Virus record (IMG/VR): IMGVR_UViG_2974792740_000001
Coordinates: 11,944-75,943 of that record
Length of the DNA stretch: 64,000 nucleotides
DNA from: a virus
Taxonomy: Duplodnaviria; Caudoviricetes
Strand: one strand, 5' to 3'
Part shown: positions 3,878-50,275 of the stretch, piece after piece
Layout of the letters: each line of letters opens with the position of its first letter
How positions within the stretch are numbered: position 1 is the first letter of the stretch
Notes under the pieces: generated by a model
Seen by the model: the letters and a program-made list of their open reading frames with translations, nothing else
Told to the model about the DNA's origin: nothing
Database searches by the model: none
Position numbers and translations under genes: made by a program

Positions 3878-6800
3878 ATGGCTGCTGCTAGCGCCCGTAA
3901 GGTTATTGGCGATGCGATTCTGAAGATCGCCCCATCTTTGAATGGCTTCAAGAAAAAGGCCGAGGAAGAGCTGAAGAAGATTCAGCTCACCAAGGATGTC
4001 ACGTTGCTGGTGGACACCAAGGTGTTCAAGGCGCGTGTCGAGCAGGCTTTGAAAGAGGTCCAGAAGGAACTCACCATTGATTTGGGGGTTCGGACTTCTA
4101 CGGCTACGTCGCGGATTCGTGAGTGGCGTGAGCGTCAAGAGGCTAACGACATCCAGATTGGTGTCGACGCGGATACCGCCAAGGGTAAGGCTGAGATCAC
4201 TCAGCTCCGCGAAAAAGAAGAGCATGATGACATCCAGATCGATGTGGATGCGGATACTCGCAAGGCCCGTAATGAGATCGATGATCTGAAGTACCAGTTC
4301 CGTGTGGTTCAGGGCTTCACGGGTATGACGATCTTCAATCTGTCGAATATCACGATGGCCGCTACTGGCATTGCTGGCATTGTCGGCTTGCTGGGTGGTG
4401 TGGTTGCTGGTGCTGCGGCGGCTGCTACGGCGCTGGGCGCTATGGGTGGCGCTGTCGCTATTGGTTCGTCGGGCATCTTCAATGCGTTCACTGAGTTGAA
4501 TGCGGAGAAGAAGACTGCGGCTACGCGGGATCCGTCGAAGGATGCGAAGAAGGCCACTGATGCGTTGCGTGAGCAGCGGGAGGCCACGCAGCGTGTTGCG
4601 GATGCGCAGCAGGCGTTGCGGAATTCGTCTGACGATCTGGCGTCGGATCAGCAGAAGTTGCGTGATGCGACTCGTGATGCGACTCGTGAGATTCGTGACC
4701 AGCGTTTGGAGTTGGAGGAGACGGGCCAGTCTCAGGAGCGGGCAGCTATCAACGTTGCTCGTGCCCGTGAGCGTCTGTCTCAGGTTCGCTACGACTATTC
4801 GGTGGGCAAGGCGTCCCGGCTGGATGTGCAGGATGCTGCGCTGTCGGTCAAGGAGTCTGAGACCCGTTTGAGGCGGGCTCAGAACCAGACTGATGATGTT
4901 CGTGCGAACGCTAATCAGGTGTACGCGAATGGTGTTGAGCGCAATCCGAAGGTTGTGTCTGCTCGCAGGGATGTGGAGCGCGGCCAGCAGACTGTCAAGC
5001 GCAATGAGCGTGAGCTGTCTGATGCGGTCACTGACGCACGGAATGTTCAGGCGAATGCTGGCGCGGTAGCGGATAAGACTTCTCGTTTCGATGAGGCGAT
5101 GAAGAAGCTGTCTCCGAATGCGCAGCAGTTTGTTCGGGATGTGCGGTCGTTGGGTGGCGCGTGGCGCGAGCTGCGTATGTCGGTTCAGGACACGTTGTTT
5201 GATGGCCTGGGCGAGAAGATCAAGCTTGTGGCGCAGGGCCAGTTGCCTGCATTGCGTTCCGGTATGGAGCGTGTTGCCGGTACGGCCAATGGTGCGCTGA
5301 AGAGTTCTCTGGATGTGCTCAACAGTACGTTCACTGAGTTCTCCAATAACGGTACGGCGTTGAAGTTCTGGCAGTCTGTCCAGGATCAGTTCCGCAACTT
5401 TGCGCCTGTCATCGATGCGGTTGCACGGACTTTGACGACGTTGAGTATCCAGGCCGGTAACGGTGTGGGTACGTTCTTCGGCGATCTGGGCGTGTTCCTG
5501 AATGATGGCGCGCAGATGTGGGGCGAGTTCGGCGGCCAGGCGATGGTCACGCTGGGCAACCTGCTGCACCTGTTCAATCGTTTCTCTGAGACGTTGATGC
5601 CGACTTTCCAGGCGGCGTTGCCTGCTATCGAGCAGGTGTTCGCTTCCCTGAATCAGGTGTTGGGTGACAACCAGGGCCGTCTCGCGGAGTTCATGACCGC
5701 TATCGGTGGTGCGCTGTCGCAGTTGATTATTGCTGCTGCGCCGCTTTTGGTGGCTGTGATTGAGCCGCTGACGATGCTGTTGAATGCGATCTCGGCTCTG
5801 CCTACGTGGCTGATTGCTGGGGCGTTCGCGTTCATTGTGATCTCGCGTTCGATCCTTCAGGCTGTGATCGGTATCGGCAACTTGATCGGTCGTATTGTTG
5901 CCGCCGGCCAGGGTTTCCGGAACTTGCGGAATGCGAGTATCCACTTCTCGCAGGGTATGCGTAATGACGCAAACTTGGCGGGTACTGGTGCGAGCACTGC
6001 GATGTACAAGTTTGGTCAGCAGTACCAGCGCGTGATGGTGGGTGTCCAGGAGACTTCTACGCGTTCGTGGGGAATCTTCCGTCGCACTGCCGAGAACGCC
6101 GCTATGGGGGCGTCTAGGGCTGTCGGTAACGTCCGGACGGGTGTTGCCCAGCTCATCACTACGACTGACCGCGCTACGGCGGCTCAGGGCCGTTTGGGGC
6201 GTGCTATGGAGGCTGCGGGACGTATGTCTCCGTGGGCTCGTATTCTGTCGATCCTGACGCTTGTGGCGACCATTGCGGGCACCGTGATGATGTTGTTCGG
6301 CATGGGTGATGCGTCGGCGCAGACGTCGATGGATGGCACCACTGAGGGCATGGATGAAATGTCGTCGGGTATTGGTGGCGCGACCGATAAGATGATGATC
6401 TTCCTTTCGGTTATCACGCTGCTGCCGATGGCGTTGGGTTCGGCTACGGCGCGCACGAAGCTCGCTACGGCTGCAACGAATTTGTGGACTGCTGCGACTG
6501 GCCGTCTGGCTATGGCGATGAACTTCTTGAAGGGGTTGCCTGCCCGCCTGGCTGCGGTTGCGATCGGCACGAAGTTGGTTGCTGGCGCTACTCGGGCTTG
6601 GGCTGTTGTGCAGGCTGCGCTCAATGTTGTGATGTCCATGAACCCGATCGGGTTGGTGGTCATTGCGATTGCGGCGTTGGTTGCTGGCGTCATTTGGGCG
6701 TGGAACAAGTTTGAGGGCTTCCGCAACGCGGTGAAGTTCCTGTGGGATCTGTTCCTGAACACGAACCCGATTGCGTTGCTCGTCAAGGGCATCCTGTGGG

Positions 6801-37693: not shown

Positions 37694-38348
37694 CGATGAT
37701 GAGGTCGGCCTCAATTATCAGGCGCTCCGCATGTTGTGGCGGTCTCGGGCCATTCACCGGCAGGCCGTTACTGACTGGATGACCCAGCGCCCCACCGTCG
37801 ATGAAGTTGAGTTGCCCGAGGATGTGACGGAGAAGCTGCAACGCCTCGCCGCGCAGAACTCCCGCCGGCCTGACGCTGTGCAGCTCATTCAGCAAATCCC
37901 GTATGTGGTTGCGTGGTTTCGGGAATCGATGGTCGCTGGGTCTCATCCGGGCGGCGAAGAGGACATCAAGTCTTCTGCTGGCCCCTCGTCTCGCCCACCT
38001 TTTCGTGTGGCGTTCATGTCGGCTGCTGATCGTGAGGTGGCCGCTCTGGTGCATTGGTGTCACGAGTGTGGCGTCAGTGTGCGTGGCCCGGTGTACATGG
38101 TTGCCGGGTCTATCCGTGGTGTGTCGCCGCGTGATCCGAGTTCCCCGATCCGCCAGATGGCCGAAGAGTTGTCGGACGCTGTTTCGCGGTGGGGTGAACC
38201 GGAAGGTATCTACACCGACCCTGAGTTTGGTTTGTGGTCGATTCGTTCTGCGCACTACGGCATTTGGCCCGAGTTGGGGTCTTTGTTCACTGAGGATCCG
38301 GATGTTCCGGATCCGGATGATGATGTTGAGCCGGAAGGTTTGTTTTGA
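37656..38348 (+). CDS. Hypothetical protein
   Basis: 230-aa ORF; TTGA overlap with the next gene. Confidence 0.6.
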   Translation: MQYRDGHDPYTFDDDEVGLNYQALRMLWRSRAIHRQAVTDWMTQRPTVDEVELPEDVTEKLQRLAAQNSRRPDAVQLIQQIPYVVAWFRESMVAGSHPGGEEDIKSSAGPSSRPPFRVAFMSAADREVAALVHWCHECGVSVRGPVYMVAGSIRGVSPRDPSSPIRQMAEELSDAVSRWGEPEGIYTDPEFGLWSIRSAHYGIWPELGSLFTEDPDVPDPDDDVEPEGLF

Positions 38349-39292
38349 CAGAACTGATTGCAATGCGGGGCCTGCCTGGTTCCGGGAAGACCACCCGTGC
38401 TCGCCGAATCGCCGCCGCCACTGGGGCTGTCGTTGTCGGTCGTGACTTCGAACGCTTCCAGATGTTCGGCGAGTGGTGGACTGGCGGCAAACCCGAGCAC
38501 GAGGATGCAGTCACGGTCGCCCTGAACGCCAAGGTGCGAGCCTTGCTGAAGGCGAATCAATCTGTGGTCGTTGACAACACGCACATTCGCCTCGGTTACC
38601 TGAAGGATTGGGCGAAGGTCGCTTCGGAGTGTGGGGCCACGTTCCGGATTGAAGACGTGAAGACGGACGTTGAAGAGTGCATCCGCCGAGACAATGACCG
38701 TTTTCACAACTTCGGTGGCGACCGGGCGAGCTTGGGTGGCGACAGACTGGTGGGCGAGCAGGCGATTCGCCGAATGGCATCACGCATTGACTGGCGTATG
38801 CCGAAGCCGGTAGCGCCCATTGAGATCGAACCCGTTGACCACAAGGTTGCCGAAGAGCTGATGCTTCCCGGCGCGATCCTCGTGGACATCGACGGCACAC
38901 TCGCCCACATGACGGGGCGCAGCCCGTACGACTACAGCCGCGTTGGTGAAGACATGGTGGACTTCGCTGTTCGCGGGATCGTTCAGGACTACGAAGAACT
39001 CGGTTACGACATCATCGTGTGCTCGGGCCGTGACGACGAATGCCGCACCATGACCGTGGCATGGTTGCTCGCCAACGACATCCCGTTCCACAAGCTGCTC
39101 ATGCGGCCCACGGACGCCAAGGACGCCAACGGCAACAAACTCCCCGACTGGATCGTCAAATACAACCTGTTCAACGAGAACGTGCGCGGCAAGTACGACG
39201 TGGCATTCGTCCTCGACGACCGCAATCAGGTTGTGGACATGTGGCGCAAGCTCGGGCTGAAGTGTTTGCAGGTTGCCCCCGGCGACTTCTGA
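38345..39292 (+). CDS. Polynucleotide 5'-kinase / 3'-phosphatase (T4 PseT-like)
   Basis: GLPGSGKT P-loop; HAD DIDGTLA, SGR, LLMR, LDDR. Confidence 0.92.
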   Translation: MTELIAMRGLPGSGKTTRARRIAAATGAVVVGRDFERFQMFGEWWTGGKPEHEDAVTVALNAKVRALLKANQSVVVDNTHIRLGYLKDWAKVASECGATFRIEDVKTDVEECIRRDNDRFHNFGGDRASLGGDRLVGEQAIRRMASRIDWRMPKPVAPIEIEPVDHKVAEELMLPGAILVDIDGTLAHMTGRSPYDYSRVGEDMVDFAVRGIVQDYEELGYDIIVCSGRDDECRTMTVAWLLANDIPFHKLLMRPTDAKDANGNKLPDWIVKYNLFNENVRGKYDVAFVLDDRNQVVDMWRKLGLKCLQVAPGDF

Positions 39293-39462
39293 TGTACGTC
39301 GCGCCGGATCGTCCAGCTCTCGAATGCCAGGCGTGCGGTATGGCACTGCAAGCACTCACTGACGAGCAAGCCGCCGACATGGCACTCAATCCCTACAACT
39401 ACATCGCCTTTTGTGCCCCGTGTAAGCGCAAGGGCTATCACATAGAACCAGGATTCTTATGA
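39292..39462 (+). CDS. Small zinc-ribbon protein
   Basis: CQAC..CAPC; TGATG overlap. Confidence 0.6.
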   Translation: MYVAPDRPALECQACGMALQALTDEQAADMALNPYNYIAFCAPCKRKGYHIEPGFL

Positions 39463-40775
39463 CCAACAGTCTCTCTGTTGTCGGCAGTAGCAACTACGCC
39501 GCACAGATCGTCCGAGTGCCCGCCACCTACCCGCTCGACGGACTCGATAACCTCGTCGGCATCAAGGTTTTCAACAGCCAAATCCTCACCCAGAAGGGCG
39601 AAGTCGAACCGGGCGACCTCCGCGTCTACTTCCCCGCAGAGGTTCGCCTCTCCGACAAGTACCTGTCGGCCAACAACCTGTTCCGGGATCCGTTCCTCAA
39701 CCGGGACAGCACGGCCACACCCGGCTACTTCGAAACCAACGGTCGCGTCAAGGCAATCAAGCTGCGCGGGCACCGCTCGGACGGCCTGCTGATGCCGATC
39801 GAATCTCTGCTCGCCTTCGGTGCTCGCGGAGAGGATCTGGTTGAGGGTGCCGTGTTCGACACCATCAACGGGATCGAGATTTCCCGCAAGTATGAGGTGA
39901 AGACCAATGCGCCGGCCGATCCCTCAGCGAAGAAGGTGAAGAAGGCGTTCAAGCGGGTCACCACGAAGGTGTTCCCCGAGCACATCGACACCGACAACTT
40001 CTTCCGCAACCAGCACCTTCTCGACACGTCGCGGGAAGTCATCATCACCCAGAAGTTGCACGGCACGAGCATCCGTGTGGGGCGCGTTCCGGTGCTGCGC
40101 GAGATCGGCTGGGTGGAGCGCATCTTCAACAAGGTGGGTGGCCTGTTCGGCATCTCCACGGCTTCGCACGCCTACGAGGTTGTGTGTGGTTCGCGGAAGG
40201 TCATCAAGGATGTGACGAACCCGCGCAGCCAGCACTACTACGGCACGGACATCTGGTCACAGTACGGCATCCAGATCGGTGACCTGATCCCCGAGGGGTT
40301 CATCGTGTACGGCGAGTTGATCGGTTGGACGCCGGATGGCAAGCCGATTCAGAAGAACTACACCTACGACGTGCCGGTTGGTAAGCGTGAGCTGTACGTG
40401 TACCGGGTGGCTCGCGTGGATGTGAATGGCACGATGACGGATTTGTCGTGGGATGCGGTGCGTGAGTTTTGCGTTGAGCGTGGGCTGAAGCATGTGCCCG
40501 AGCTGTGGCGGATCAATGACGAGTACACGACAGCTTACGGTGAGGATCTTGAAGAGCACGTCTTGGAGCTGATGGACAAGCGTCACGCCGATCTCGATTG
40601 GCAGCCCAAGGATCCGCAGATTCCTTTGTCCGATCCGAAGACGGTTGATGAGGGTGTGTGCATCCGCCAGGAGCGGCTTGTTCCCACGATCCTGAAGGCG
40701 AAGTCGCCTGTGTTCTTGCAGCACGAAACCAAGCAGCTCGATACGGGCGAAGCCGACCTCGAAAGCGCAGCATGA
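39459..40775 (+). CDS. ATP-dependent RNA ligase (Rnl2/DRB0094-like) with N-terminal OB domain
   Basis: QKLHGTS (I), YGELIG (III), EGVCIR (IV), LKAKS (V). Confidence 0.88.
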   Translation: MTNSLSVVGSSNYAAQIVRVPATYPLDGLDNLVGIKVFNSQILTQKGEVEPGDLRVYFPAEVRLSDKYLSANNLFRDPFLNRDSTATPGYFETNGRVKAIKLRGHRSDGLLMPIESLLAFGARGEDLVEGAVFDTINGIEISRKYEVKTNAPADPSAKKVKKAFKRVTTKVFPEHIDTDNFFRNQHLLDTSREVIITQKLHGTSIRVGRVPVLREIGWVERIFNKVGGLFGISTASHAYEVVCGSRKVIKDVTNPRSQHYYGTDIWSQYGIQIGDLIPEGFIVYGELIGWTPDGKPIQKNYTYDVPVGKRELYVYRVARVDVNGTMTDLSWDAVREFCVERGLKHVPELWRINDEYTTAYGEDLEEHVLELMDKRHADLDWQPKDPQIPLSDPKTVDEGVCIRQERLVPTILKAKSPVFLQHETKQLDTGEADLESAA

Positions 40776-41849: not shown

Positions 41850-43337
41850 ATGACAAGCACACGTACCTATTTCGAACCCGTAGCGGCACTCTTCCAGACC
41901 GACGCCTACAAGCTCGGACACATCCAGCAATACCAGCTCGCCGGAAACGTCACCCGCGTCTACAGCAACTACACCAACCGCAAGAGTCGAATCCCCGGCG
42001 TCGACAACGTTGTCCACTTCGGCCTTCAGGCATTCATCCAGAAGAACCTCATGGAAGCGTTTGAACCGTTCTTCGAGTCCGATGAGGACGTGGTTGCCGA
42101 ACTGTACGAAGAGCGTGTCACGTCGATCCTGGGGCCGAATACGATCGGTTCCGATCACATCCGTGCACTGCACCGACTCGGGTATCTTCCGCTGCGGTTC
42201 TGTGCGGTCCCGGAAGGCACCCTCGTGCCCATCCGGATCCCCTCGTTCACGGTGGAGAACACTCTGCCTGAGTTCTTCTGGCTGACCAACTACATCGAGA
42301 CCGCCCTGTCGGCTGGTGTGTGGCAGGCGAGCACGTCGGCCACCATTGCCAGCGAGTACCGGCAGATCCTTGACACGGCGGCGTGGGAGACGGGTAGCAG
42401 CTTCGATGCTGTCGACTTCCAGGTTCACGATTTCAGCTACCGGGGAATGAGTTCCAATGAGTCTGCGCAGGTTTCGGGTGCGGCGCACCTGCTTTCGTTC
42501 TCCGGGACGGACTCTCTGGTCGCTCTCGATTGGATTGACCGCTACTACGGAGGCTCGGATTACGTTGCGGCGTCAGTCCCGGCGACAGAGCACAGTGTCA
42601 TGTGCACCGGAATCGCCAAGCTCGGTGAGCAGGAAATGTTCTCCAAGCTTCTCGACCTCTACCCGTCGGGGATCGTTTCCGTCGTGTCAGACACCTTCGA
42701 TCTGTGGCGTGTCCTCACGGAGTACCTGCCAGCACTGCGCACTAAGGTACTTGCGCGAGACGGGAAGCTAGTCATCCGCCCGGACTCGGGCGACCCGCAG
42801 AAGATCATCTGTGGCGACCCTGACGCCCCTGAGGGCAGCAATGAGTACCTGGGTGTGATCGGCCTGCTGGATCGCACGTTCGGTTCGACTCCGAACAAGC
42901 TCGGCTACTACGAGCTGGACTCGCACGTCGGCATCATCTACGGCGATTCGATCACCGTGGAGCGGGCAAAGGCGATCACTGACGATCTGGCTTCGCAGAA
43001 CTACGCGAGCACGAATGTGGTGTTCGGTGTCGGTAGCTTCACCTACCAGTACAACACGCGTGACACCTTCGGTTCGGCGATGAAGGCTACGTGGGCTGAG
43101 GTGGACGGTGAGGGTGTCAATCTGCTGAAAGACCCGATCACTGACGATGGCACGAAGAAGTCGGCTACGGGCCGTCTGGCGGTCAATGTGGATGACATGG
43201 GTGCCTGGACCCTGACCGAGAAGGCTAACGAATGGGAAGAGGCCCTGAGTGACCTTCAGCCCGTTTGGGAGAACGGTCAGTTCATCCAGCGTCAGACCTT
43301 CCAGGACGTGAGGAAGAAGCTCGCATACTGGGGGTGA
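41850..43337 (+). CDS. Nicotinamide phosphoribosyltransferase-like protein (possible Namat)
   Basis: TDAYKLGH, HDFSYRG, AAHLLSFSGTD, PATEHS, VVSDTFD, IRPDSGDP, IYGDSIT. Confidence 0.95.
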   Translation: MTSTRTYFEPVAALFQTDAYKLGHIQQYQLAGNVTRVYSNYTNRKSRIPGVDNVVHFGLQAFIQKNLMEAFEPFFESDEDVVAELYEERVTSILGPNTIGSDHIRALHRLGYLPLRFCAVPEGTLVPIRIPSFTVENTLPEFFWLTNYIETALSAGVWQASTSATIASEYRQILDTAAWETGSSFDAVDFQVHDFSYRGMSSNESAQVSGAAHLLSFSGTDSLVALDWIDRYYGGSDYVAASVPATEHSVMCTGIAKLGEQEMFSKLLDLYPSGIVSVVSDTFDLWRVLTEYLPALRTKVLARDGKLVIRPDSGDPQKIICGDPDAPEGSNEYLGVIGLLDRTFGSTPNKLGYYELDSHVGIIYGDSITVERAKAITDDLASQNYASTNVVFGVGSFTYQYNTRDTFGSAMKATWAEVDGEGVNLLKDPITDDGTKKSATGRLAVNVDDMGAWTLTEKANEWEEALSDLQPVWENGQFIQRQTFQDVRKKLAYWG

Positions 43338-43882: not shown

Positions 43883-44649
43883 ACACACACAAACAGATCG
43901 CATACGACAACCTGATGATGCTCGGCATAGCAGGATCGCAGCTCTACGGCACCAACCTGGACAACGGCGACAACGACCAGATGGGTGTTTGCCTGGAACC
44001 GCCCGCCTACGTGACTGGACTGGAAACCTTCGAGCAGTACCAGTACCATTCCGCCGGCAAGGACACTCGTTCCAGCGCAGACGATCTCGATCTCACGATC
44101 TACAGTCTCCGCAAATGGGCAAAGCTTGCAGCGGCAGGCAACCCCACGGTCCTGCTGTTGGGGTTCACTCCCGATGAGCTACTGCTCCATGACAGCCTGG
44201 ACGGTCGGATCCTTCGCTACTCGATGCACCGTTTCATGTCCCGGCAGGCTGCGGGCAAGTTCTACGGCTACCTGGAATCCCAACGCAAGCAGATGCTCGG
44301 TCTCACCGGACGTAAGCACAGCAACCGGCCAGAGCTGGTCGAGCAGTTCGGTTTCGACACCAAGTTCGCCTACCACGCAGTGAGACTCGGAATGCAAGGC
44401 GTCGAGTACCTGACGACGGGCGAGATGACGCTGCCCATGCGGGAAGAGGAACGCAACTACCTGATCGACATCAGGCAAGGCCGCGAGTCCTTCGACGATG
44501 TGGTCACGGTCATCAACCTGTACCAAGGGCTGCTGCTCAAGCTGATGCGTTCCGCCGAGCTGCCCCCGCGTGCCGACTATCAGTGGATTAATCGGTGGCT
44601 CACTGACACGTATGTGATCCACTGGAACGAGAGGGGCTATCTGCTCTGA
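43879..44649 (+). CDS. Pol-beta-family nucleotidyltransferase (PF10127/RlaP-like)
   Basis: GSQLYG..DNDQMGV, GNPTVL, FDTKFAYHAVRL; start inferred at CTG 43879 (first ATG 43915). Confidence 0.8.
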   Translation: MNTHKQIAYDNLMMLGIAGSQLYGTNLDNGDNDQMGVCLEPPAYVTGLETFEQYQYHSAGKDTRSSADDLDLTIYSLRKWAKLAAAGNPTVLLLGFTPDELLLHDSLDGRILRYSMHRFMSRQAAGKFYGYLESQRKQMLGLTGRKHSNRPELVEQFGFDTKFAYHAVRLGMQGVEYLTTGEMTLPMREEERNYLIDIRQGRESFDDVVTVINLYQGLLLKLMRSAELPPRADYQWINRWLTDTYVIHWNERGYLL

Positions 44650-45036: not shown

Positions 45037-45100
45037 TGTTGTAAGTGAATCGGGGTTGAGAGAGCGCCCAAGACATTGAACGGCGCTCCCCACTCCGAGG

Positions 45101-45156
45101 CTGACTGCGTTGCCGATTGGATCGGAATCAACGCGGGTTCGAATCCCGCCAGTCAG
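45101..45156 (+). ncRNA. D-armless tRNA-like RNA
   Basis: CTGACTG/CAGTCAG 7-bp stem; GCGGG-TTCGAAT-CCCGC T-arm; one central hairpin. Confidence 0.55.
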
Positions 45157-45159
45157 ACG

Positions 45160-45290
45160 GGCGCAGATGCGTAGATTGTGGTTACTTCACTAATTGGATA
45201 TGCAGGTTCAAGTCCTGCCGTCAAGCCTCTCAGGCCGCTGAGCCTTGATGCTCGACGTTTGTTCCACGATCGACCAAGTTCCCTCGCGCC
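45160..45290 (+). ncRNA. Y RNA-like unit 1 (with tRNA-like module)
   Basis: Terminal stem; ATGCGTAG..GTTACTTC..AAGTTCC motif; T-arm GCAGG-TTCAAGT-CCTGC followed by a loop-closed acceptor stem. Confidence 0.7.
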
Positions 45291-45298
45291 AACTACCA

Positions 45299-45371
45299 CC
45301 CCAGATGCGAAGGCTGCACAGTTACTTCAATTGGATGAAACGCACACTGTGTGCCATCCAGTCCCCTGGGG
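45299..45371 (+). ncRNA. Y RNA-like unit 2 (short)
   Basis: CCCCAG/CTGGGG stem; ATGCGAAG..GTTACTTC..AGTCCC. Confidence 0.65.
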
Positions 45372-45382
45372 TTACATCTTCA

Positions 45383-45530
45383 CGTTCAGATGCGTAGAGA
45401 CGTTGGTTACTTCCATGCTAAGGACGAGGTTGCGGGTTCGAATCCCGCCCAGTCAGGCCGCAAGGCAGGTCAGGTAGCTCAATCGGCTAGAGCGCGTAAA
45501 CACACCAACACTCGGCAAGTTCCCTGAACG
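45383..45530 (+). ncRNA. Y RNA-like unit 3 (YrlA-type permuted tRNA module)
   Basis: CGTTCAG/CTGAACG stem; T-arm, GCAA-capped hairpin, then D-arm TA-GCTC-AATCGGCTA-GAGC. Confidence 0.8.
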
Positions 45531-45542
45531 ATCAAACATTCC

Positions 45543-45627
45543 GCCGTGATGCGAAGCACGAACGTTACTTCATCAGTTGCTAAAGAAACCGAACAGAAAC
45601 ACGTTCATGCAACTCAGTTCACACGGC
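45543..45627 (+). ncRNA. Y RNA-like unit 4 (short)
   Basis: GCCGTG/CACGGC stem; ATGCGAAG..GTTACTTC..AGTTCA; inner AGTTGC/GCAACT. Confidence 0.65.
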
Positions 45628-45654
45628 ACAATTCAACACACAGGAGCAGAAGGA

Positions 45655-47253
45655 ATGTCGCGCTACAACACCGCCACCAAGGCCCGACCCGCACAAAAGT
45701 CGAGCGCCATCAAGGCCGGTACGAAGCCCAAAACCAACCCACAGGGTGGAATCGGATTCAAGCGCGGCGACGCCAAGTCCGAACTGTTCCTCTCCGCTGC
45801 AACCTCATTCATGCAGCCCAAATTCTATGAAACCGAAAGCGACCTGCGCGCACGTCAGCGCAAGCTCATCGCCAAGGTGGCCGTCTCCGACCCGGAGTGG
45901 ACTTTCGAGTTCCTGACGTGGCTCCGCACCGAGGGCAACCTGCGCACCGGGTCGCTCACCCTGGCCGCTGACGCGGTTCGGGAACGCCTGAAGGCGGGCA
46001 AAACGGGCTGGAACCGGCAGATCATCTCCACGGTCCTGCGCCGGCCTGACGAGCCTGGCGAAATGCTGGCCTACTGGACAACCAACTACGGTCGCAACGT
46101 GCCGATCTCGGTCAAGCGTGGCATCGCGGACGTCATTGAGGGCCAGTACAACGAGCGCAACTTTCTGAAGTACGACAGCGCGTCTCGCGCCTTCCGGTTC
46201 GGTGATGTGATCGAGCTGACCCATCCGAAGATGACGGGCAGCCGGGGTGATCTCGCCTCGTATGCGATCACTGTGGGTAAGGGCCATGACGCCGAGATCC
46301 CGTCTTCCCTCTCGATGATCCGAAAGAATCGCAACCTGCGTCAGTGGACTCCCGGCGAGATCGTGGAGCGCGCAAAGTACCGGGGCGACGATCTGATGCC
46401 ACTGAGCGACGTGCTCAGCGCAGCAGGTATGACGTGGGAAGATATTCCCGCACTCGTCAACGGCCCCTGGACGCCCGAACTGTGGGAAGCCGCCATCCCC
46501 AACATGGGCGTGATGGCCCTCATGCGGAACTTGAGAAACTTCGACCAAGTCGGCATCTCCAAGCAAGCCGCAAAGATGGTCCGCGACAAACTGTCCGACC
46601 CTGAGGCTGTCCGCAAGTCCCGAATCCTTCCCCTCCGTGCACTGTCCGCCTACAAGGCTGTCAGCAATTCGCGCTGGCACGGCGCACTCGAAGACGCCGT
46701 GGACATCACTCTGGATAACGTGCCCGCCCTGAAGGGCCGCACGCTGATCCTGGTGGACTGCTCGGGCTCCATGTTCTTCGGTAACGGAACTGATCTGAGC
46801 TACGCAGAGTCGGCAGCAGTGTTCGGTACTGCACTCGCGGCGAAGGCAGAGAAGGCCACCCTCGTGCACTACGGGTCCAGCTCGCGAGAGGTTCCGGTCC
46901 CACGTGGCGCTTCGGTGTTGGAGATGGCCCGCTCGGTGCACAGCATGGGCGGCACAGCCACCGCAGCAGCGATCCAGCAGCACTACAACGGCCACGATCG
47001 TGTCATCCTGCTGACTGATGAGCAGCACAACGGTGGCGGCTACGGATGGGGCTCGCGCTACGTGTCTCAGAACCCGAGCGACTACGTGCCAAAGCACATT
47101 CCGCTCATCACCTTCAACCTCGCCGGATACAAGCTCGGCGGCGTCAAGGACGGCCCTAATCGGCTGACATTCTCGTCGCTGTCCGACTCGGCCTGGAAGC
47201 TTGTTGACATGTTCGGCAACGGCATGTCCGGATGGCCCTGGGAGGCAAACTGA
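45655..47253 (+). CDS. rsr: Ro60/TROVE-domain RNA-binding protein
   Basis: TROVE motifs (LRRPDEPGEMLAYW, KYD, MALMRNLRNF, RILPLR) and VWA MIDAS DCSGS..TDEQ. Confidence 0.93.
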   Translation: MSRYNTATKARPAQKSSAIKAGTKPKTNPQGGIGFKRGDAKSELFLSAATSFMQPKFYETESDLRARQRKLIAKVAVSDPEWTFEFLTWLRTEGNLRTGSLTLAADAVRERLKAGKTGWNRQIISTVLRRPDEPGEMLAYWTTNYGRNVPISVKRGIADVIEGQYNERNFLKYDSASRAFRFGDVIELTHPKMTGSRGDLASYAITVGKGHDAEIPSSLSMIRKNRNLRQWTPGEIVERAKYRGDDLMPLSDVLSAAGMTWEDIPALVNGPWTPELWEAAIPNMGVMALMRNLRNFDQVGISKQAAKMVRDKLSDPEAVRKSRILPLRALSAYKAVSNSRWHGALEDAVDITLDNVPALKGRTLILVDCSGSMFFGNGTDLSYAESAAVFGTALAAKAEKATLVHYGSSSREVPVPRGASVLEMARSVHSMGGTATAAAIQQHYNGHDRVILLTDEQHNGGGYGWGSRYVSQNPSDYVPKHIPLITFNLAGYKLGGVKDGPNRLTFSSLSDSAWKLVDMFGNGMSGWPWEAN

Positions 47254-48063: not shown

Positions 48064-48163
48064 CTGAGTAGAAGTTTCGGCTCCGTTTCATGGACACTCC
48101 AACGTCAATCAAACGGGCAGTCCCTTTCTAGGACAAAAGTCCTGTGCGGCAACACAGGCATCT

Positions 48164-48238
48164 GCCCGCGTAGCTTAATGGTAAAGCCCCGGCTTGTGGT
48201 GCCGGTGATTACGGTTCGACTCCGTGCGCGTGGAACCA
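48164..48238 (+). tRNA. tRNA-His(GTG), imperfect acceptor stem
   Basis: D, anticodon (CCGGC-TTGTGGT-GCCGG) and T arms canonical; ends ACCA. Confidence 0.75.
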
Positions 48239-48239
48239 A

Positions 48240-48375
48240 CGGCCGATAGTCCAATGGAGTGGTCCCCACATATCGAACTAGCGGGCGTGCACGCCGACGG
48301 CTAGCGAATTTCTGTGAAGGGTCCAGGACGCCCCAAATGGTGGAGGAAATGCGGGTTCGAATCCCGCGAGGCCGA
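48240..48375 (+). ncRNA. tRNA-Pro(TGG)-like RNA with ~65-nt D-loop insertion
   Basis: C1:G72, A73, GTCC/GGAC D-stem, canonical T-arm; insert forms a nested hairpin. Confidence 0.55.
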
Positions 48376-48494
48376 CGAAATGACCGGACGACCGTGGAAG
48401 CCGGTTGGTCATGAACGAGCGCAACTTGCCTGCCGGTGGCTAGGTTGCGTCTGGTAGACGGTGGGGCTTCCGGAAACAATTCCCCACCTCGCAA

Positions 48495-48571
48495 TCGCAT
48501 GTAGTTCAAAGGGTAGAGCAACCGGGCGTACGCTGAACCGGGGAATGTGGGTTCGAATCCCACCATGCGGG
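48495..48571 (+). ncRNA. tRNA-like RNA with 12-nt anticodon loop
   Basis: 7-bp acceptor stem, D and T arms canonical; loop GCGTACGCTGAA. Confidence 0.65.
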
Positions 48572-48603
48572 CTGCGCTTGATCGTGCGCGTAAACGATCG
48601 GCT

Positions 48604-48676
48604 GCCTTAGAAACCGAATTGGCTAGGTGCCTGACTTCCAATCAGGATTTTGCGGGTTCAAGTCCCGTCTAAGGCT
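48604..48676 (+). tRNA. tRNA-Gly(TCC)
   Basis: GCCTTAG/CTAAGGC; CCTGA-CTTCCAA-TCAGG; U73. Confidence 0.9.
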
Positions 48677-48810
48677 CCGGCCCTGCTGCTGGGGACCGAT
48701 ATGCCGAGTAACCAAGACTCGGTGCAGTAGCGCGGTGGTGGTGGCTAGATTCCAACAACACGTCACTAGGGTTGCAACCTGCCGATAGCGCTGTCGGCTG
48801 AATAGCTCCA

Positions 48811-48885
48811 CTCTCCGTAGCTCAGATGGTTTAGAGCAGGGCACTCTTAATGCTCGGGTCGCAGGTTCGAACCCTGCCGGGGAGA
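48811..48885 (+). tRNA. tRNA-Lys(CTT)
   Basis: Full cloverleaf; GGGCA-CTCTTAA-TGCTC. Confidence 0.93.
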
Positions 48886-48961
48886 CGGCCCTCCTGCTGG
48901 GGTTATACGCCAGATCGCTACTGGCACAGCAGGGCATCAGGCAACGTCGGGCCTGATGTTT

Positions 48962-49032
48962 CGTCGCATAAGTCTCAGCGGCAAGAGCTGGGGGTATTCC
49001 CCTGGTCGCCGGTTCGATTCCGGCTGCGACAC
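48962..49032 (+). ncRNA. Initiator-tRNA-like RNA with 4-nt anticodon loop
   Basis: C1xA72 mismatch, G-C-rich anticodon stem, loop TATT, canonical T-arm. Confidence 0.6.
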
Positions 49033-49228
49033 GATGGGGTGGTATTCCCAGTTAGCACAACCAGTCGACGGTCCGTGCTTGAAAAATGACCAGGGCGGCA
49101 TTGCAGTGCCAACTAGCCACGACGGACTAAGCCCGATGAAGGCCGTCTAACCCCTCGCTGGTCAAGCCCTGCAAGGTACGGGCCGGGGACAATTTGGAGT
49201 GCACATCAAGCGGGGGTGCACTCATTCG

Positions 49229-49312
49229 GGGCTTGTGGCGGAATTGGCAGACGCGCCGGATTCAAAATCCGGAGTCCTTTCGGACGTGTGGGTTCGACCC
49301 CCACCAGGCCCA
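49229..49312 (+). tRNA. tRNA-Leu(CAA)
   Basis: CCGGA-TTCAAAA-TCCGG; long variable arm; A73. Confidence 0.93.
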
Positions 49313-49313
49313 C

Positions 49314-49568
49314 ATGGCACTGAGACCGCCACCACTGGCAGAACCCCATGAGGTTGATGACCTCTCGCATCTCGAAGCACTGAGGCGACTTTCAGCCATC
49401 AGCGCGTACACGTACGCGGCCCACAATCAAGTGGATGCGGACGTGAACTCAATGGCAACGAAGGGCTGTTGGGCACCACCAATCGAGCACGGTACCTACA
49501 AGCCGGGTCACGCACCTTCGGGTGCGTATGCCCGCCTGATCGGCCTGCTCACGAAGGGAAAGAAGTAG
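49314..49568 (+). CDS. Hypothetical protein
   Basis: ATG 2 nt after the tRNA-Leu discriminator base. Confidence 0.45.
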   Translation: MALRPPPLAEPHEVDDLSHLEALRRLSAISAYTYAAHNQVDADVNSMATKGCWAPPIEHGTYKPGHAPSGAYARLIGLLTKGKK

Positions 49569-49571
49569 CAC

Positions 49572-49757
49572 ATGTTTGGACGTAAGAAGAAGCGCGCCAC
49601 CAGCGCCACGCCCTCGCGCAGCAGCTACGACAGCTGCAGCAGCACCACCCCGTATGGCGGCTACAGCAACAGCGGCTACGACAGCGGCTCGTCCTACTCG
49701 TCGTCGTGTGACAGCTCGTCGTCCTCGTCTTCGTGTGACAGCGGCGGAAGCTTCTGA
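49572..49757 (+). CDS. Ser-rich small protein
   Basis: SSYSSSCDSSSSSSSCDSGG; TGATG overlap with next gene. Confidence 0.55.
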   Translation: MFGRKKKRATSATPSRSSYDSCSSTTPYGGYSNSGYDSGSSYSSSCDSSSSSSSCDSGGSF

Positions 49758-49948
49758 TGGGTACCGCGCTGGTAATCGGGGGGATTCTCCTCGGGGCGCT
49801 GCTCATCGGCGCGGCGGTCGCATGTGTCGCAAAGGCTGTGCTCGACTCGCCTCTGTCGCAGGGTGTTGCGCAGGGAAGCTCCACCTACAAGGGTGGGTTT
49901 GACCTCAGTCATCCCACTGGGGTTGCGCTACTGGTGGCGGCTACCTGA
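49757..49948 (+). CDS. Small membrane protein
   Basis: Hydrophobic N-terminus. Confidence 0.55.
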   Translation: MGTALVIGGILLGALLIGAAVACVAKAVLDSPLSQGVAQGSSTYKGGFDLSHPTGVALLVAAT

Positions 49949-50043
49949 TGGAGTTCCTGGCAATCGTTGGCGCAGTGACATGCATCGCCGTAATCTGTTA
50001 TGTCGCAGTCGGCGTCGGGGTTCTCATCACGCTCTCGCGGTGA
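49948..50043 (+). CDS. 31-aa membrane peptide (absent from ORF track)
   Basis: MEFLAIVGAVTCIAVICYVAVGVGVLITLSR; TGATG overlap. Confidence 0.55.
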   Translation: MEFLAIVGAVTCIAVICYVAVGVGVLITLSR

Positions 50044-50051
50044 GCCCGTAT

Positions 50052-50122
50052 TCCCTGATCGTCTAACGGCAGGACGCCGCGCTCTGGACGCGGAGATTGA
50101 GGTTCGAATCCTTGTCGGGGAG
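50052..50122 (+). tRNA. tRNA-Gln(CTG)
   Basis: U1:A72, G73; CCGCG-CTCTGGA-CGCGG. Confidence 0.93.
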
Positions 50123-50183
50123 CTTGCCCTTGGGATGGGGTATAGCGCGGTTGGCCGAACCGCGATAAACAAAATGGCCGTAA

Positions 50184-50262
50184 CCGGGTAACCGCATGGA
50201 GCGGAATGGGACTGTAAATCCCAGGCGGAAACGCACCGGAGGTTCGATTCCTTCTACCCGGA
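50184..50262 (+). tRNA. tRNA-Tyr(GTA) with C1:G72
   Basis: TGGGA-CTGTAAA-TCCCA; long variable arm; atypical short 8-9 connector. Confidence 0.85.
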
Positions 50263-50275
50263 CCCAACAGACGAA

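What the first reader, a model, noticed from the sequence alone, without database searches (positions are those of the whole stretch)
45160..45627. Four tandem Y-RNA-like units with a shared motif directly upstream of Ro60
Each unit has its own, differently sequenced terminal stem (compensatory pairing) enclosing ATGCG(T/A)AG-N6-8-GTTACTTC ... AGT(T/C)C(C/A). Units 1 and 3 carry a permuted tRNA module (T-arm, loop-closed acceptor, D-arm) as in YrlA; units 2 and 4 replace it with simple hairpins. Y RNAs next to rsr are established in bacteria and some phages, but a four-member array with swappable effector domains suggests one Ro adaptor tethering several different partners (inference).
Basis: partly seen in the sequence, partly recalled or inferred. 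Interest (0 to 1): 0.85.

Follow-up and report, generated by a model that had tools for sequence, protein, structure and literature searches.

The report
Four phage Y RNAs beside Ro60
A Gordonia phage carries a tRNA-like leader and four small Y-type RNA genes directly in front of its Ro60 RNA-binding protein gene. It is a clear new example of a known protein-RNA partnership, here expanded and misannotated as protein genes in a relative.

Summary
The composite motif ATGCGWAG-N5-9-GTTACTTC occurs four times in the 64-kb window, all at 45167-45571, against 0 expected by chance. Each copy sits in its own terminal stem. The array ends 27 nt before the ATG of a TROVE/Ro60 gene (45655-47253).

Both stems covary across 29 units (score 0.634 against 0.212 in shuffles, 0/500). 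My model finds such units only upstream of Ro and on its strand: 36/36 hits in 20 viral contigs and 43/43 in 55 actinobacterial loci. Arrays hold 1-5 units.

- **Unit 3** is YrlA-like, with T, D, V and an irregular acceptor mimic. Its Rfam score is 44 bits, below the 69-bit threshold.
- **Unit 1** has a T-arm but no D-arm.
- **Units 2 and 4** are open-loop types.
- **A fifth element** at 45101-45157 is tRNA-like and sits where real tRNAs precede such arrays in other phages. It is probably a processing signal.

This is a new member of a known kind (Chen 2014; Thermus phage phiLo 2025). This scan has noted similar phage Ro60-RNA arrays on other DNA. Expression and Ro binding remain untested.

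The parts
45101..45157 (+). Unit 0, a tRNA-like leader. It has a 7-bp acceptor stem (45101-45107 with 45150-45156), an inner hairpin (45109-45132), a T-arm (45133-45149, loop UUCGAAU) and a discriminator-like A at 45157. It has no D-arm or anticodon loop. It is the proposed RNase P / RNase Z punctuation signal that frees the 5' end of unit 1, which starts 2 nt later.
   Evidence: Fold. Two compensatory base-pair changes in the acceptor stem against Rabbitrun (CUGACUG/CAGUCAG versus CUGAUCG/CGAUCAG), with the inner hairpin replaced. Not called as a tRNA. The geometry matches the real tRNA-Asn placed 2 nt before the first Y unit in L102 and L044.
45160..45290 (+). Y RNA unit 1 (131 nt). P1 is 45160-45166 with 45283-45290 (one bulged C). 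J1/2 AUGCGUAG is 45167-45174. P2 is 45175-45181 with 45264-45270. The UUACUUC box is 45182-45188, the T-arm 45202-45218 and the acceptor-like irregular stem-loop 45219-45257. J2/1 is 45271-45282. No D-arm.
   Evidence: Model R1 hit at E 4e-6. Against Rabbitrun the docking module and T-arm are 100% identical, while the stem-loop is 60% identical with a 14-nt indel.
45299..45371 (+). Y RNA unit 2 (73 nt). P1 is 45299-45304 with 45366-45371. J1/2 AUGCGAAG is 45305-45312. P2 is 45313-45321 with 45347-45355. The 25-nt loop opens with UUACUUC (45322-45328), followed by AAUUGGAUGAAAC. J2/1 is 45356-45365.
   Evidence: Model R1, 57.7 bits, E 1.9e-12. 72/73 identical to Rabbitrun. The AAUUGG...GAAA(A)C loop motif recurs in Streptomyces-phage units. 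The MFE fold prefers a rival hairpin, so P2 here rests on the comparison with other units.
45383..45530 (+). Y RNA unit 3 (148 nt), YrlA-like. P1 is 45383-45389 with 45524-45530. J1/2 AUGCGUAG is 45390-45397. P2 is 45398-45406 with 45505-45513. The box is 45407-45413, the V-like hairpin 45412-45424, the T-arm 45432-45448, the irregular acceptor mimic with a GCAA loop 45449-45474 and the D-arm 45475-45493.
   Evidence: Rfam YrlA RF02553, 44.1 bits, E 2.2e-8, below the 69-bit threshold. RNAalifold on 7 long units gives P1, P2, T, AS and D, with 24 of 30 pairs showing compensatory change. The acceptor mimic is 58% identical to Rabbitrun with 48 gap columns; the rest is 94-100% identical.
45543..45627 (+). 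Y RNA unit 4 (85 nt). P1 is 45543-45548 with 45622-45627. J1/2 AUGCGAAG is 45549-45556. P2 is 45557-45564 with 45602-45609 (one C-A mismatch). The box is 45565-45571. An A-rich 30-nt loop segment spans 45572-45601. J2/1 is 45610-45621.
   Evidence: Model R1, 50.1 bits, E 1.6e-10. The MFE fold contains P1 and P2. The loop is 74% identical to Rabbitrun with indels; the 5' module is 97% identical.
45628..45654 (+). Ro60 5' leader, with the Shine-Dalgarno AGGAG at 45642-45646.
   Evidence: Sequence. 27/27 identical to Rabbitrun.
45655..47253 (+). Ro60 / TROVE orthologue (532 aa) with a vWA-like C-terminal part. It is the presumed protein partner of the four RNAs.
   Evidence: Pfam TROVE E 7.5e-16; VWA_2 weak and below its cutoff. 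PDB relatives: Thermus phage phiLo Ro60 9KOP/9L5Y at E 3e-19 and D. radiodurans Rsr 2NVO at E 1.6e-7. 90.6% identical to the Rabbitrun 'Ro-like RNA binding protein'.

Best explanation
The stretch 45101-45627 is a polycistronic non-coding RNA cluster. It holds one tRNA-like leader and four Y RNAs, read in the same direction as the phage Ro60 gene that follows, and probably on the same transcript.

Each Y RNA has the same docking module: a terminal stem P1, an internal loop whose 5' strand is NUGCGNAG and whose 3' strand ends in GUYC-N, a second stem P2, and an invariant UUACUUC. [quoted passage not shown]

The part beyond P2 differs from unit to unit:
- Unit 3 carries a permuted tRNA mimic, like YrlA.
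- Unit 1 carries a T-arm plus a stem-loop.
- Units 2 and 4 carry open single-stranded loops, like YrlB.

These parts are inferred to recruit different partners, such as host PNPase or tRNA-handling enzymes, or to gate Ro's central cavity. The leader and the short A/U-rich linkers are inferred to direct RNase P, RNase Z and RNase E cutting into discrete RNAs. The cluster sits in an RNA-repair gene block (PNK-phosphatase, RNA ligase, RlaP nucleotidyltransferase, tRNA genes). Its likely role is RNA quality control or repair during infection.

Shown here: the sequence anatomy, the covariation, and the strict association with Ro genes. Inferred: Ro binding, processing and partners.
For: - **Motif count.** The motif occurs 4 times against 0 expected.
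- **Covariation of P1 and P2.** In 13 units the score is 0.474 against 0.200 in shuffles, 0/500. In 29 units it is 0.634 against 0.212, 0/500, with slid controls at 0.07-0.20.
- **Association with Ro.** Model R1 hits lie only upstream of Ro and on the same strand. This holds for 36/36 hits in 20 viral loci chosen by protein and 43/43 hits in 55 actinobacterial Ro loci. Twenty IMG/VR contigs with the exact motif have a Ro gene beside it. The phage's own genome holds no other copy.
- **tRNA-like module.** Unit 3 matches Rfam YrlA at E 2e-8. The T, AS and D arms have compensatory support.
- **Selection pattern.** Against Rabbitrun the docking modules are 97-100% identical. Flanking coding genes are 82-93% identical and the variable tips 44-74% with indels.
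- **Partner protein.** The Ro protein is related to solved Ro60 structures.
- **Published precedent.** Y RNAs lie within 4 kb of Ro60 on the same strand, with a conserved YUAY and a tRNA-like domain, and M. smegmatis YrlA and YrlB are processed from one precursor (PMC4201824). Phage phiLo Ro60 binds two upstream Y-like RNAs and forms a complex with host PNPase (PMC12135203).
- **Neighbouring genes.** PNK-phosphatase, RNA ligase and RlaP.
Against: - There is no expression or binding data.
- No sigma-70-type promoter was found in front of the array.
- The published GNCGAAN0-1G motif is not matched exactly. Units 2 and 4 have UGCGAAG and units 1 and 3 have UGCGUAG.
- Rfam YrlA does not reach its gathering score, here or in 10 related loci.
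- Unit 3's acceptor mimic has only 7 Watson-Crick pairs in 11 positions, so RNase P cleavage as seen in M. smegmatis is doubtful.
- For unit 2 the thermodynamic optimum is a rival hairpin rather than P2.
Confidence: 0.85

Rival explanations
1. The units act in cis as a structured leader of the Ro60 mRNA. Ro binds its own 5' UTR to autoregulate translation or stability, and no free trans-acting Y RNAs are made.
For: Unit 4 ends 27 nt before the ATG, and that leader is 100% conserved. No separate promoter or terminator lies between the array and the gene.
Against: The position relative to the start codon is not conserved. In other loci the units lie up to about 800 nt upstream, are interleaved with tRNA genes (L010), or lie downstream of the gene (Bromden). 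Each unit closes on its own stem and is separated by short A/U-rich linkers. In M. smegmatis such RNAs are cut from a precursor and co-precipitate with Rsr (PMC4201824).
Confidence: 0.07
2. The array is a run of decayed tRNA genes with no Ro-related function.
For: T-arms are present in unit 0, unit 1 and unit 3, and unit 3 has a D-arm. ARAGORN and the GenBank record call a homologous unit in phage GiJojo 'tRNA-Arg(cct)'. Seven real tRNA genes lie 2.5 kb downstream.
Against: No unit is called as a tRNA in the window. The arm order is permuted. The non-tRNA docking module is the most conserved part (97-100%). It recurs with covariation only beside Ro genes. Units 2 and 4 have no tRNA parts at all.
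Confidence: 0.04
3. The region encodes small proteins, as annotated in phage Rabbitrun (gp93, gp94) and as the 99-codon ORF 45178-45477 would allow.
For: An open frame exists. GenBank annotates two hypothetical proteins over the homologous stretch.
Against: The window ORF and Rabbitrun gp93 share no similarity (E 14). Indels of 14 nt break the frame. There is no Pfam hit. Conservation follows RNA helices, not codons.
Confidence: 0.02

Closest known systems
Mycobacterium smegmatis YrlA and YrlB with Rsr (Chen et al. 2014, PMC4201824)
   Same: An actinobacterial lineage. Several Y RNAs lie upstream of Ro60 on the same strand and are cut from one precursor. One carries a T / acceptor-mimic / D tRNA-like domain and another carries only a T-arm. 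A conserved 5' motif and a YUAY element are present. The published YrlA 5' probe implies UUACCACUUC...UAAUGGAAU, close to unit 1's UUACUUCACUAAUUGGAU.
   Different: Four RNAs plus a tRNA-like leader here, rather than two. The setting is a phage genome. The motif is UGCG(A/U)AG, not an exact GNCGAAN0-1G. Unit 3's acceptor mimic is irregular, whereas M. smegmatis YrlA has 7 clean pairs that RNase P cleaves.
Thermus phage phiLo Ro60 with Yrl1 and Yrl2 (PMC12135203)
   Same: A phage-encoded Ro60 with Y-like RNAs directly upstream. A terminal stem flanks an internal loop with a CGAA-type motif. The protein is the best PDB match (9KOP, E 3e-19).
   Different: Two RNAs there and four plus a leader here. 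Binding and PNPase recruitment were shown there and are untested here. The paper as read does not use the term tRNA-like.
Salmonella Typhimurium YrlA/YrlB in the rsr-yrlBA-rtcBA RNA-repair operon; Rfam RF02553
   Same: A tRNA-mimic Y RNA plus a simpler second Y RNA. Both are linked to RNA-repair genes (a ligase).
   Different: Rfam score 44 bits, below 69. The repair partners here are PNK-phosphatase, an Rnl-type ligase and RlaP rather than RtcB/RtcA. No RtcR control.
Deinococcus radiodurans Yrn1/Yrn2, made as one precursor with tRNA-Asp (PMC4201824)
   Same: Several small RNAs upstream of rsr. A tRNA in the same precursor acts as punctuation, like unit 0 here and the tRNA-Asn in Streptomyces-phage contigs.
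   Different: A different Ro-binding helix that resembles the metazoan one on both strands. A real tRNA rather than a reduced mimic.
Vertebrate Y RNAs (Y1, Y3, Y4, Y5; Rfam RF00019)
   Same: Two to four Y RNAs per genome with a constant Ro-binding stem and variable loops. The Y1 5' end as printed in PMC4597359 reads CGAAGG-N6-GUUAUCUCAAUU. Unit 2 reads CGAAGG-N7-GUUACUUCAAUU.
   Different: No RF00019 hit at E <= 10. The genes are dispersed rather than arrayed. No tRNA-like domain.

Membership tests
Bacterial/phage Y RNA (YrlA/YrlB type, Chen et al. 2014) | Encoded within about 4 kb of a Ro60 (TROVE) gene and on the same strand | tested here: met
   The array ends 27 nt before the Ro ATG on the + strand. 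TROVE Pfam E 7.5e-16; PDB Ro60 relatives.
Bacterial/phage Y RNA (YrlA/YrlB type, Chen et al. 2014) | 5' and 3' ends pair into a stem that flanks an internal loop | tested here: met
   P1 and P2 covary: 0.634 against 0.212 in shuffles, 0/500, across 29 units.
Bacterial/phage Y RNA (YrlA/YrlB type, Chen et al. 2014) | GNCGAAN0-1G motif near the 5' end | tested here: inconclusive
   Units 2 and 4 read UGCGAAG (5 of 6 specified positions). Units 1 and 3 read UGCGUAG (4 of 6). The family consensus here is NUGCG(A/U/C)AG.
Bacterial/phage Y RNA (YrlA/YrlB type, Chen et al. 2014) | Conserved YUAY after the stem, where the V region begins | tested here: met
   UUAC within the invariant GUUACUUC in all four units; described in PMC4201824.
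YrlA (Rfam RF02553) | tRNA-like domain: T-arm, closed acceptor-like stem (AS), D-arm, often a V hairpin | tested here: met
   Unit 3 only. T 45432-45448, AS 45449-45474 (irregular), D 45475-45493, V 45412-45424. Unit 1 has T plus a stem-loop without D. Units 2 and 4 have none.
YrlA (Rfam RF02553) | Score at or above the Rfam gathering threshold (69 bits) | tested here: not met
   44.1 bits, E 2.2e-8, for unit 3. No YrlA at threshold in 10 related loci.
Bacterial/phage Y RNA (YrlA/YrlB type, Chen et al. 2014) | Discrete stable RNAs bound by Ro60 in vivo | not testable with these tools
There is no binding assay.
Metazoan Y RNA (Rfam RF00019) | Match to the covariance model | tested here: not met
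   No hit at E <= 10 in the array, in unit 2 alone, or in two related short units.
tRNA (for unit 0) | Full cloverleaf recognised by ARAGORN or Rfam RF00005 | tested here: not met
   Not called. Only the acceptor stem, the T-arm and one extra hairpin are present.
Ro60 / TROVE protein | TROVE HEAT-repeat ring plus a vWA domain | tested here: met
   TROVE above its cutoff. VWA_2 20.7 bits, below its 27-bit cutoff. Aligns to 9KOP, 9L5Y and 2NVO over residues about 253-465. No structure was predicted.

The most novel reading that the evidence does not exclude
Phage Ro60 loci carry an expanded, fast-evolving adaptor kit. It has one nearly frozen Ro-docking module, recurrent effector classes (tRNA mimic, T-arm type, AAUUGG-loop type, A-rich loop type), and hypervariable acceptor-mimic tips that are swapped between close relatives. 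The kit would retarget host nucleases or decoy host tRNA-directed defence enzymes during infection. The docking module (CGAAG, upper stem, GUUAY) would also be homologous to the 5' domain of animal Y RNAs rather than merely similar.
Probability: 0.2. Interest if true: 0.65.

Novelty: new member of a known kind. Interest (0 to 1): 0.4.

Why it matters
Ro60 and its Y RNAs are conserved from bacteria to humans, yet what the different Y RNAs of one organism each do is still open. A 76-kb phage that infects Gordonia terrae, a cultivable host on which related phages were isolated, packs four distinct Y RNAs, a processing leader and Ro60 into about 2.2 kb, next to RNA-repair genes. That gives a compact system in which each RNA could be deleted or swapped.

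The work also gives a usable consensus (P1, NUGCGNAG, P2, GUUACUUC) and a covariance model. The model finds such RNAs in actinophages and actinobacteria where Rfam YrlA stays below threshold. It also flags annotation errors, where hypothetical proteins and a 'tRNA-Arg' have been laid over Y RNA genes.

Tried and rejected
- **Metazoan Y RNA membership.** No RF00019 hit in three searches.
- **Stem-swap permutation test.** I searched for the best P1+P2 partner in 300 nt and compared it with stems swapped in from other units. The search space was too loose (native 11.9 against permuted 10.9 of 13), so I dropped it. I used alignment-based covariation instead.
- **Model R1 on long units.** It was built from short units and aligns the long units badly (unit 3 at E 2.3). 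Long units were therefore analysed separately with RNAalifold.
- **Promoter scan.** None found. The five terminator-like hits are weak and lie inside helices or on the other strand.
- **Coding reading.** Rejected.
- **Loop-to-J2/1 pairing.** A pairing between loop UUGGAU and J2/1 AUCCA is possible in unit 2 and in L064 unit 3, but the other short units I compared by eye do not conserve it. I did not adopt it.
- **The small hairpin of unit 3.** I first read it as an anticodon-arm mimic. After re-reading Chen 2014 I treat it as the V (variable-arm) equivalent, with P2 standing in for the anticodon stem.

Full report
**What the window is.**
The window is bases 11944-75943 of a 75.9-kb virus record. 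Its nearest named relative is Gordonia phage Rabbitrun (Nevillevirus). The array is 81-88% identical to Rabbitrun and the Ro protein 90.6%. All neighbouring genes run on the + strand:
- PNK-phosphatase, 38345-39292
- RNA ligase, 39459-40775
- a Prs-like protein
- Nampt, 41850-43337
- RlaP nucleotidyltransferase, 43915-44649
- the RNA array
- Ro60/TROVE
- a primase-polymerase
- seven tRNA genes, 48163-50264

**The observation.**
The composite motif ATGCGWAG-N5-9-GTTACTTC occurs four times in 64 kb, at 45167, 45305, 45390 and 45549, all on the + strand. No match appeared in 100 shuffles. Each copy is enclosed by a 6-7 bp stem of its own sequence, and each 3' strand is preceded by AGUYC(C/A). The gene that follows has a TROVE domain (E 7.5e-16). 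It matches the solved Ro60 of Thermus phage phiLo (E 3e-19) and D. radiodurans Rsr. The likely start is ATG 45655, behind AGGAG at 45642-45646.

**Refined anatomy.**
I collected relatives in three ways:
- A pattern scan of IMG/VR. Of the loci it fetched, 20 also have a Ro gene beside the motif.
- Ro protein searches of phage records, viral contigs and bacterial genomes.
- Annotated regions of named phages.

Aligning short units showed that the 'N6-8 spacer' plus the G of GUUACUUC pairs with a downstream C-started segment. This forms a second helix, P2. The consensus unit therefore reads: P1, J1/2 (NUGCGNAG), P2, UUACUUC plus a variable effector, P2', J2/1 (ending NNGUYC-N, or YUUUCUA in Streptomyces-phage types), P1'.

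Both helices covary:
- 13 units: score 0.474 against 0.200 in shuffles, 0/500.
- 29 units aligned to covariance model R1: 0.634 against 0.212, 0/500, with slid controls at 0.07-0.20 and 79.6% of cells paired.

The second alignment is fitted to the model. The column shuffles and the slid controls are what guard against that bias.

**The four window units.**
- **Unit 1, 45160-45290.** The effector starts UUACUUCACUAAUUGGAU. It then has a T-arm (45202-45218) and an irregular stem-loop (45219-45257). In Rabbitrun that stem-loop is a clean 7-bp stem, CGUCGGG/CCCGACG. There is no D-arm.
- **Unit 2, 45299-45371.** It scores 57.7 bits with R1. Its 25-nt loop, UUACUUCAAUUGGAUGAAAC..., carries an AAUUGG...GAAA(A)C motif that recurs in Streptomyces-phage units. 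The MFE fold prefers a competing hairpin.
- **Unit 3, 45383-45530.** This is the YrlA-like unit, with a V hairpin, T-arm, acceptor mimic (AS) and D-arm. Rfam YrlA gives 44.1 bits, E 2e-8, below the 69-bit threshold. RNAalifold on seven long units recovers P1, P2, T, AS and D, with compensatory change at 24 of 30 pairs. The window's AS is irregular: 7 Watson-Crick pairs in 11 positions, capped by a GCAA loop.
- **Unit 4, 45543-45627.** P2 closes an A-rich loop. R1 gives 50.1 bits.

**A fifth element.**
At 45101-45157 lies a reduced tRNA-like RNA. It has a 7-bp acceptor stem, one inner hairpin, a canonical T-arm and a discriminator-like A. Unit 1's P1 begins 2 nt later. Against Rabbitrun the acceptor stem carries two compensatory pair changes, and the inner hairpin is replaced.

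In Streptomyces-phage contigs L102 and L044 a real tRNA-Asn ends 2 nt before the first Y unit. In L010, tRNAs are interleaved with units. In D. radiodurans, tRNA-Asp shares a precursor with Yrn1 and Yrn2 (PMC4201824). I therefore read unit 0 as a processing signal for RNase P and RNase Z. This is inference.

**Family and distribution.**
R1 hits lie only upstream of Ro and on its strand. This holds for 36 of 36 hits in 20 viral loci ascertained by protein, with 1-5 per locus. It also holds for 43 of 43 hits in 55 actinobacterial chromosomal Ro loci (Nocardia, Streptomyces, Actinoplanes and others). There the motif reads ccgGUGCG(C/A)AG-N-G(U/A/C)UACUUC, with 0-2 regex matches per locus.

Motif-ascertained phage contigs often hold 3-5 units. 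That set is biased towards having at least one. The phage genome holds no further copy. A four-unit array is therefore at the upper end of the range but not unique.

**Selection pattern.**
Against Rabbitrun:

| Part | Identity |
|---|---|
| Docking modules, T and D arms, linkers, Ro leader | 94-100% |
| RlaP coding sequence | 85% |
| Ro coding sequence | 88% |
| Small upstream ORF | 82% |
| Unit 0 inner hairpin | 44%, with indels |
| Unit 1 stem-loop | 60%, with indels |
| Unit 3 acceptor mimic | 58%, 48 gap columns, an extra T-arm-like hairpin in Rabbitrun |
| Unit 4 loop | 74%, with indels |

This mosaic argues for RNA function.

**Relation to what is known.**
Chen et al. 2014 (PMC4201824) reported the following:
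- YrlA-like RNAs next to Ro60 in 254 bacteria and 22 phages.
- A 5' GNCGAAN0-1G motif and a conserved YUAY.
- The T/AS/D/V tRNA-like domain.
- Two Y RNAs cut from one precursor in M. smegmatis.
- The idea that extra Y RNAs widen the range of Ro partners.

The phiLo study (PMC12135203) showed a phage Ro60 binding two upstream Y-like RNAs and assembling with host PNPase. RlaP adds nucleotides to damaged RNA 3' ends (preprint 10.64898/2025.12.29.696909). TROVE proteins with a tRNA-like partner are listed among phage RNA-repair gear (PMC7824862).

The present locus fits this kind on every testable feature except two: an exact GNCGAA match and the Rfam threshold. I file it as a new member of a known kind. 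This scan has also noted phage Ro60-like genes with RNA arrays on other DNA. Those notes are unchecked and were not used as evidence.

**Rivals.**
- **A cis-acting Ro leader.** The units' position relative to the start codon varies between loci, and each unit closes on its own stem.
- **Decayed tRNAs.** The arm order is permuted, and the non-tRNA docking module is the most conserved part.
- **Small proteins.** The ORFs are not conserved, frame-breaking indels occur, and there is no Pfam hit.

**Limits.**
Expression, processing sites, Ro binding and partners are all inferred. No promoter was found. The resemblance between unit 2's 5' half and mammalian Y1 is striking: CGAAGG-N7-GUUACUUCAAUU against CGAAGG-N6-GUUAUCUCAAUU. 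The Y1 and Y4 strings were checked in PMC4597359 and PMC7012775. The resemblance is not backed by the Rfam model and could be chance or convergence.

Noticed in passing
window 45048-45098: A stable hairpin (GGGGUUGAGAGAGCGCC...GGCGCUCCCC) lies between the upstream small ORF and unit 0. Its fold gives -24.4 kcal/mol, z -2.75. It is 90% identical to Rabbitrun and near-invariant over its 5' 39 nt. No U-run follows it, so it does not look like an intrinsic terminator. Function unknown.
   Followed up: partly
L001 (Rabbitrun NC_060133) 6103-6460 and 6635: GenBank annotates hypothetical proteins gp93 and gp94 across the Y RNA array. It also starts the Ro-like CDS inside Y RNA unit 4. The conserved ATG with its Shine-Dalgarno sequence lies about 48 nt further downstream.
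   Followed up: partly
L117 (Streptomyces phage GiJojo PP725410) 1264-1410: The annotated tRNA-Arg(cct) at 1269-1343 is also called by ARAGORN. It begins with the Y RNA docking motif (ccgAUGCGUAG...GUUACUUC). It is in fact a YrlA-like unit, one of four in front of the GiJojo Ro gene.
   Followed up: partly
window 45133-45156 versus 45432-45456: The T-arm plus following strand of unit 0 and of unit 3 are identical except for one extra C (GCGGGUUCGAAUCCCGCC(C)AGUCAG). Rabbitrun does not share this. It suggests recent copying between the two elements, and may explain unit 3's irregular acceptor mimic.
   Followed up: no
window 45308-45332 (unit 2): The 5' half reads CGAAGG-N7-GUUACUUCAAUU. Mammalian Y1 RNA reads CGAAGG-N6-GUUAUCUCAAUU and Y4 reads CGAUGG-N6-GGUUAUCAG, as printed in PMC4597359 and PMC7012775. 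The order is the same: lower stem, CGA motif, upper stem, GUUAY. Rfam RF00019 gives no hit, so this is a lead only.
   Followed up: partly
window 45329-45341; L117 1205-1225; L078, L072, L046 units in alignment A3: A loop motif AAUUGG(N)GAAA(A)C follows the UUACUUC box in short units of Gordonia and Streptomyces phages. It also occurs in part in unit 1 (UAAUUGGAU). It may mark a conserved effector class with an unknown partner.
   Followed up: partly
L102 1341-1413, L044 9633-9705, L072 9558-9631 (minus strand): A real tRNA-Asn(gtt) ends 1-3 nt before the first Y RNA unit in Streptomyces-phage-like contigs. In L010 tRNA genes alternate with Y units. This arrangement points to shared transcripts processed by tRNA enzymes.
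   Followed up: partly
L177 (Mycobacterium phage Bromden NC_053510) 1501-1586: A stretch 75% identical to the tRNA-like module of unit 3 lies about 130 nt downstream of an annotated 'RNA-binding protein' gene, in unannotated DNA. Y-like RNAs can therefore follow the protein gene rather than precede it.
   Followed up: no
window 45417-45419: In the 7-nt loop of unit 3's V-like hairpin the window has AUGCUAA and Rabbitrun has AUUUUAA. These are the only two changes in an otherwise invariant 35-nt stretch.
   Followed up: no
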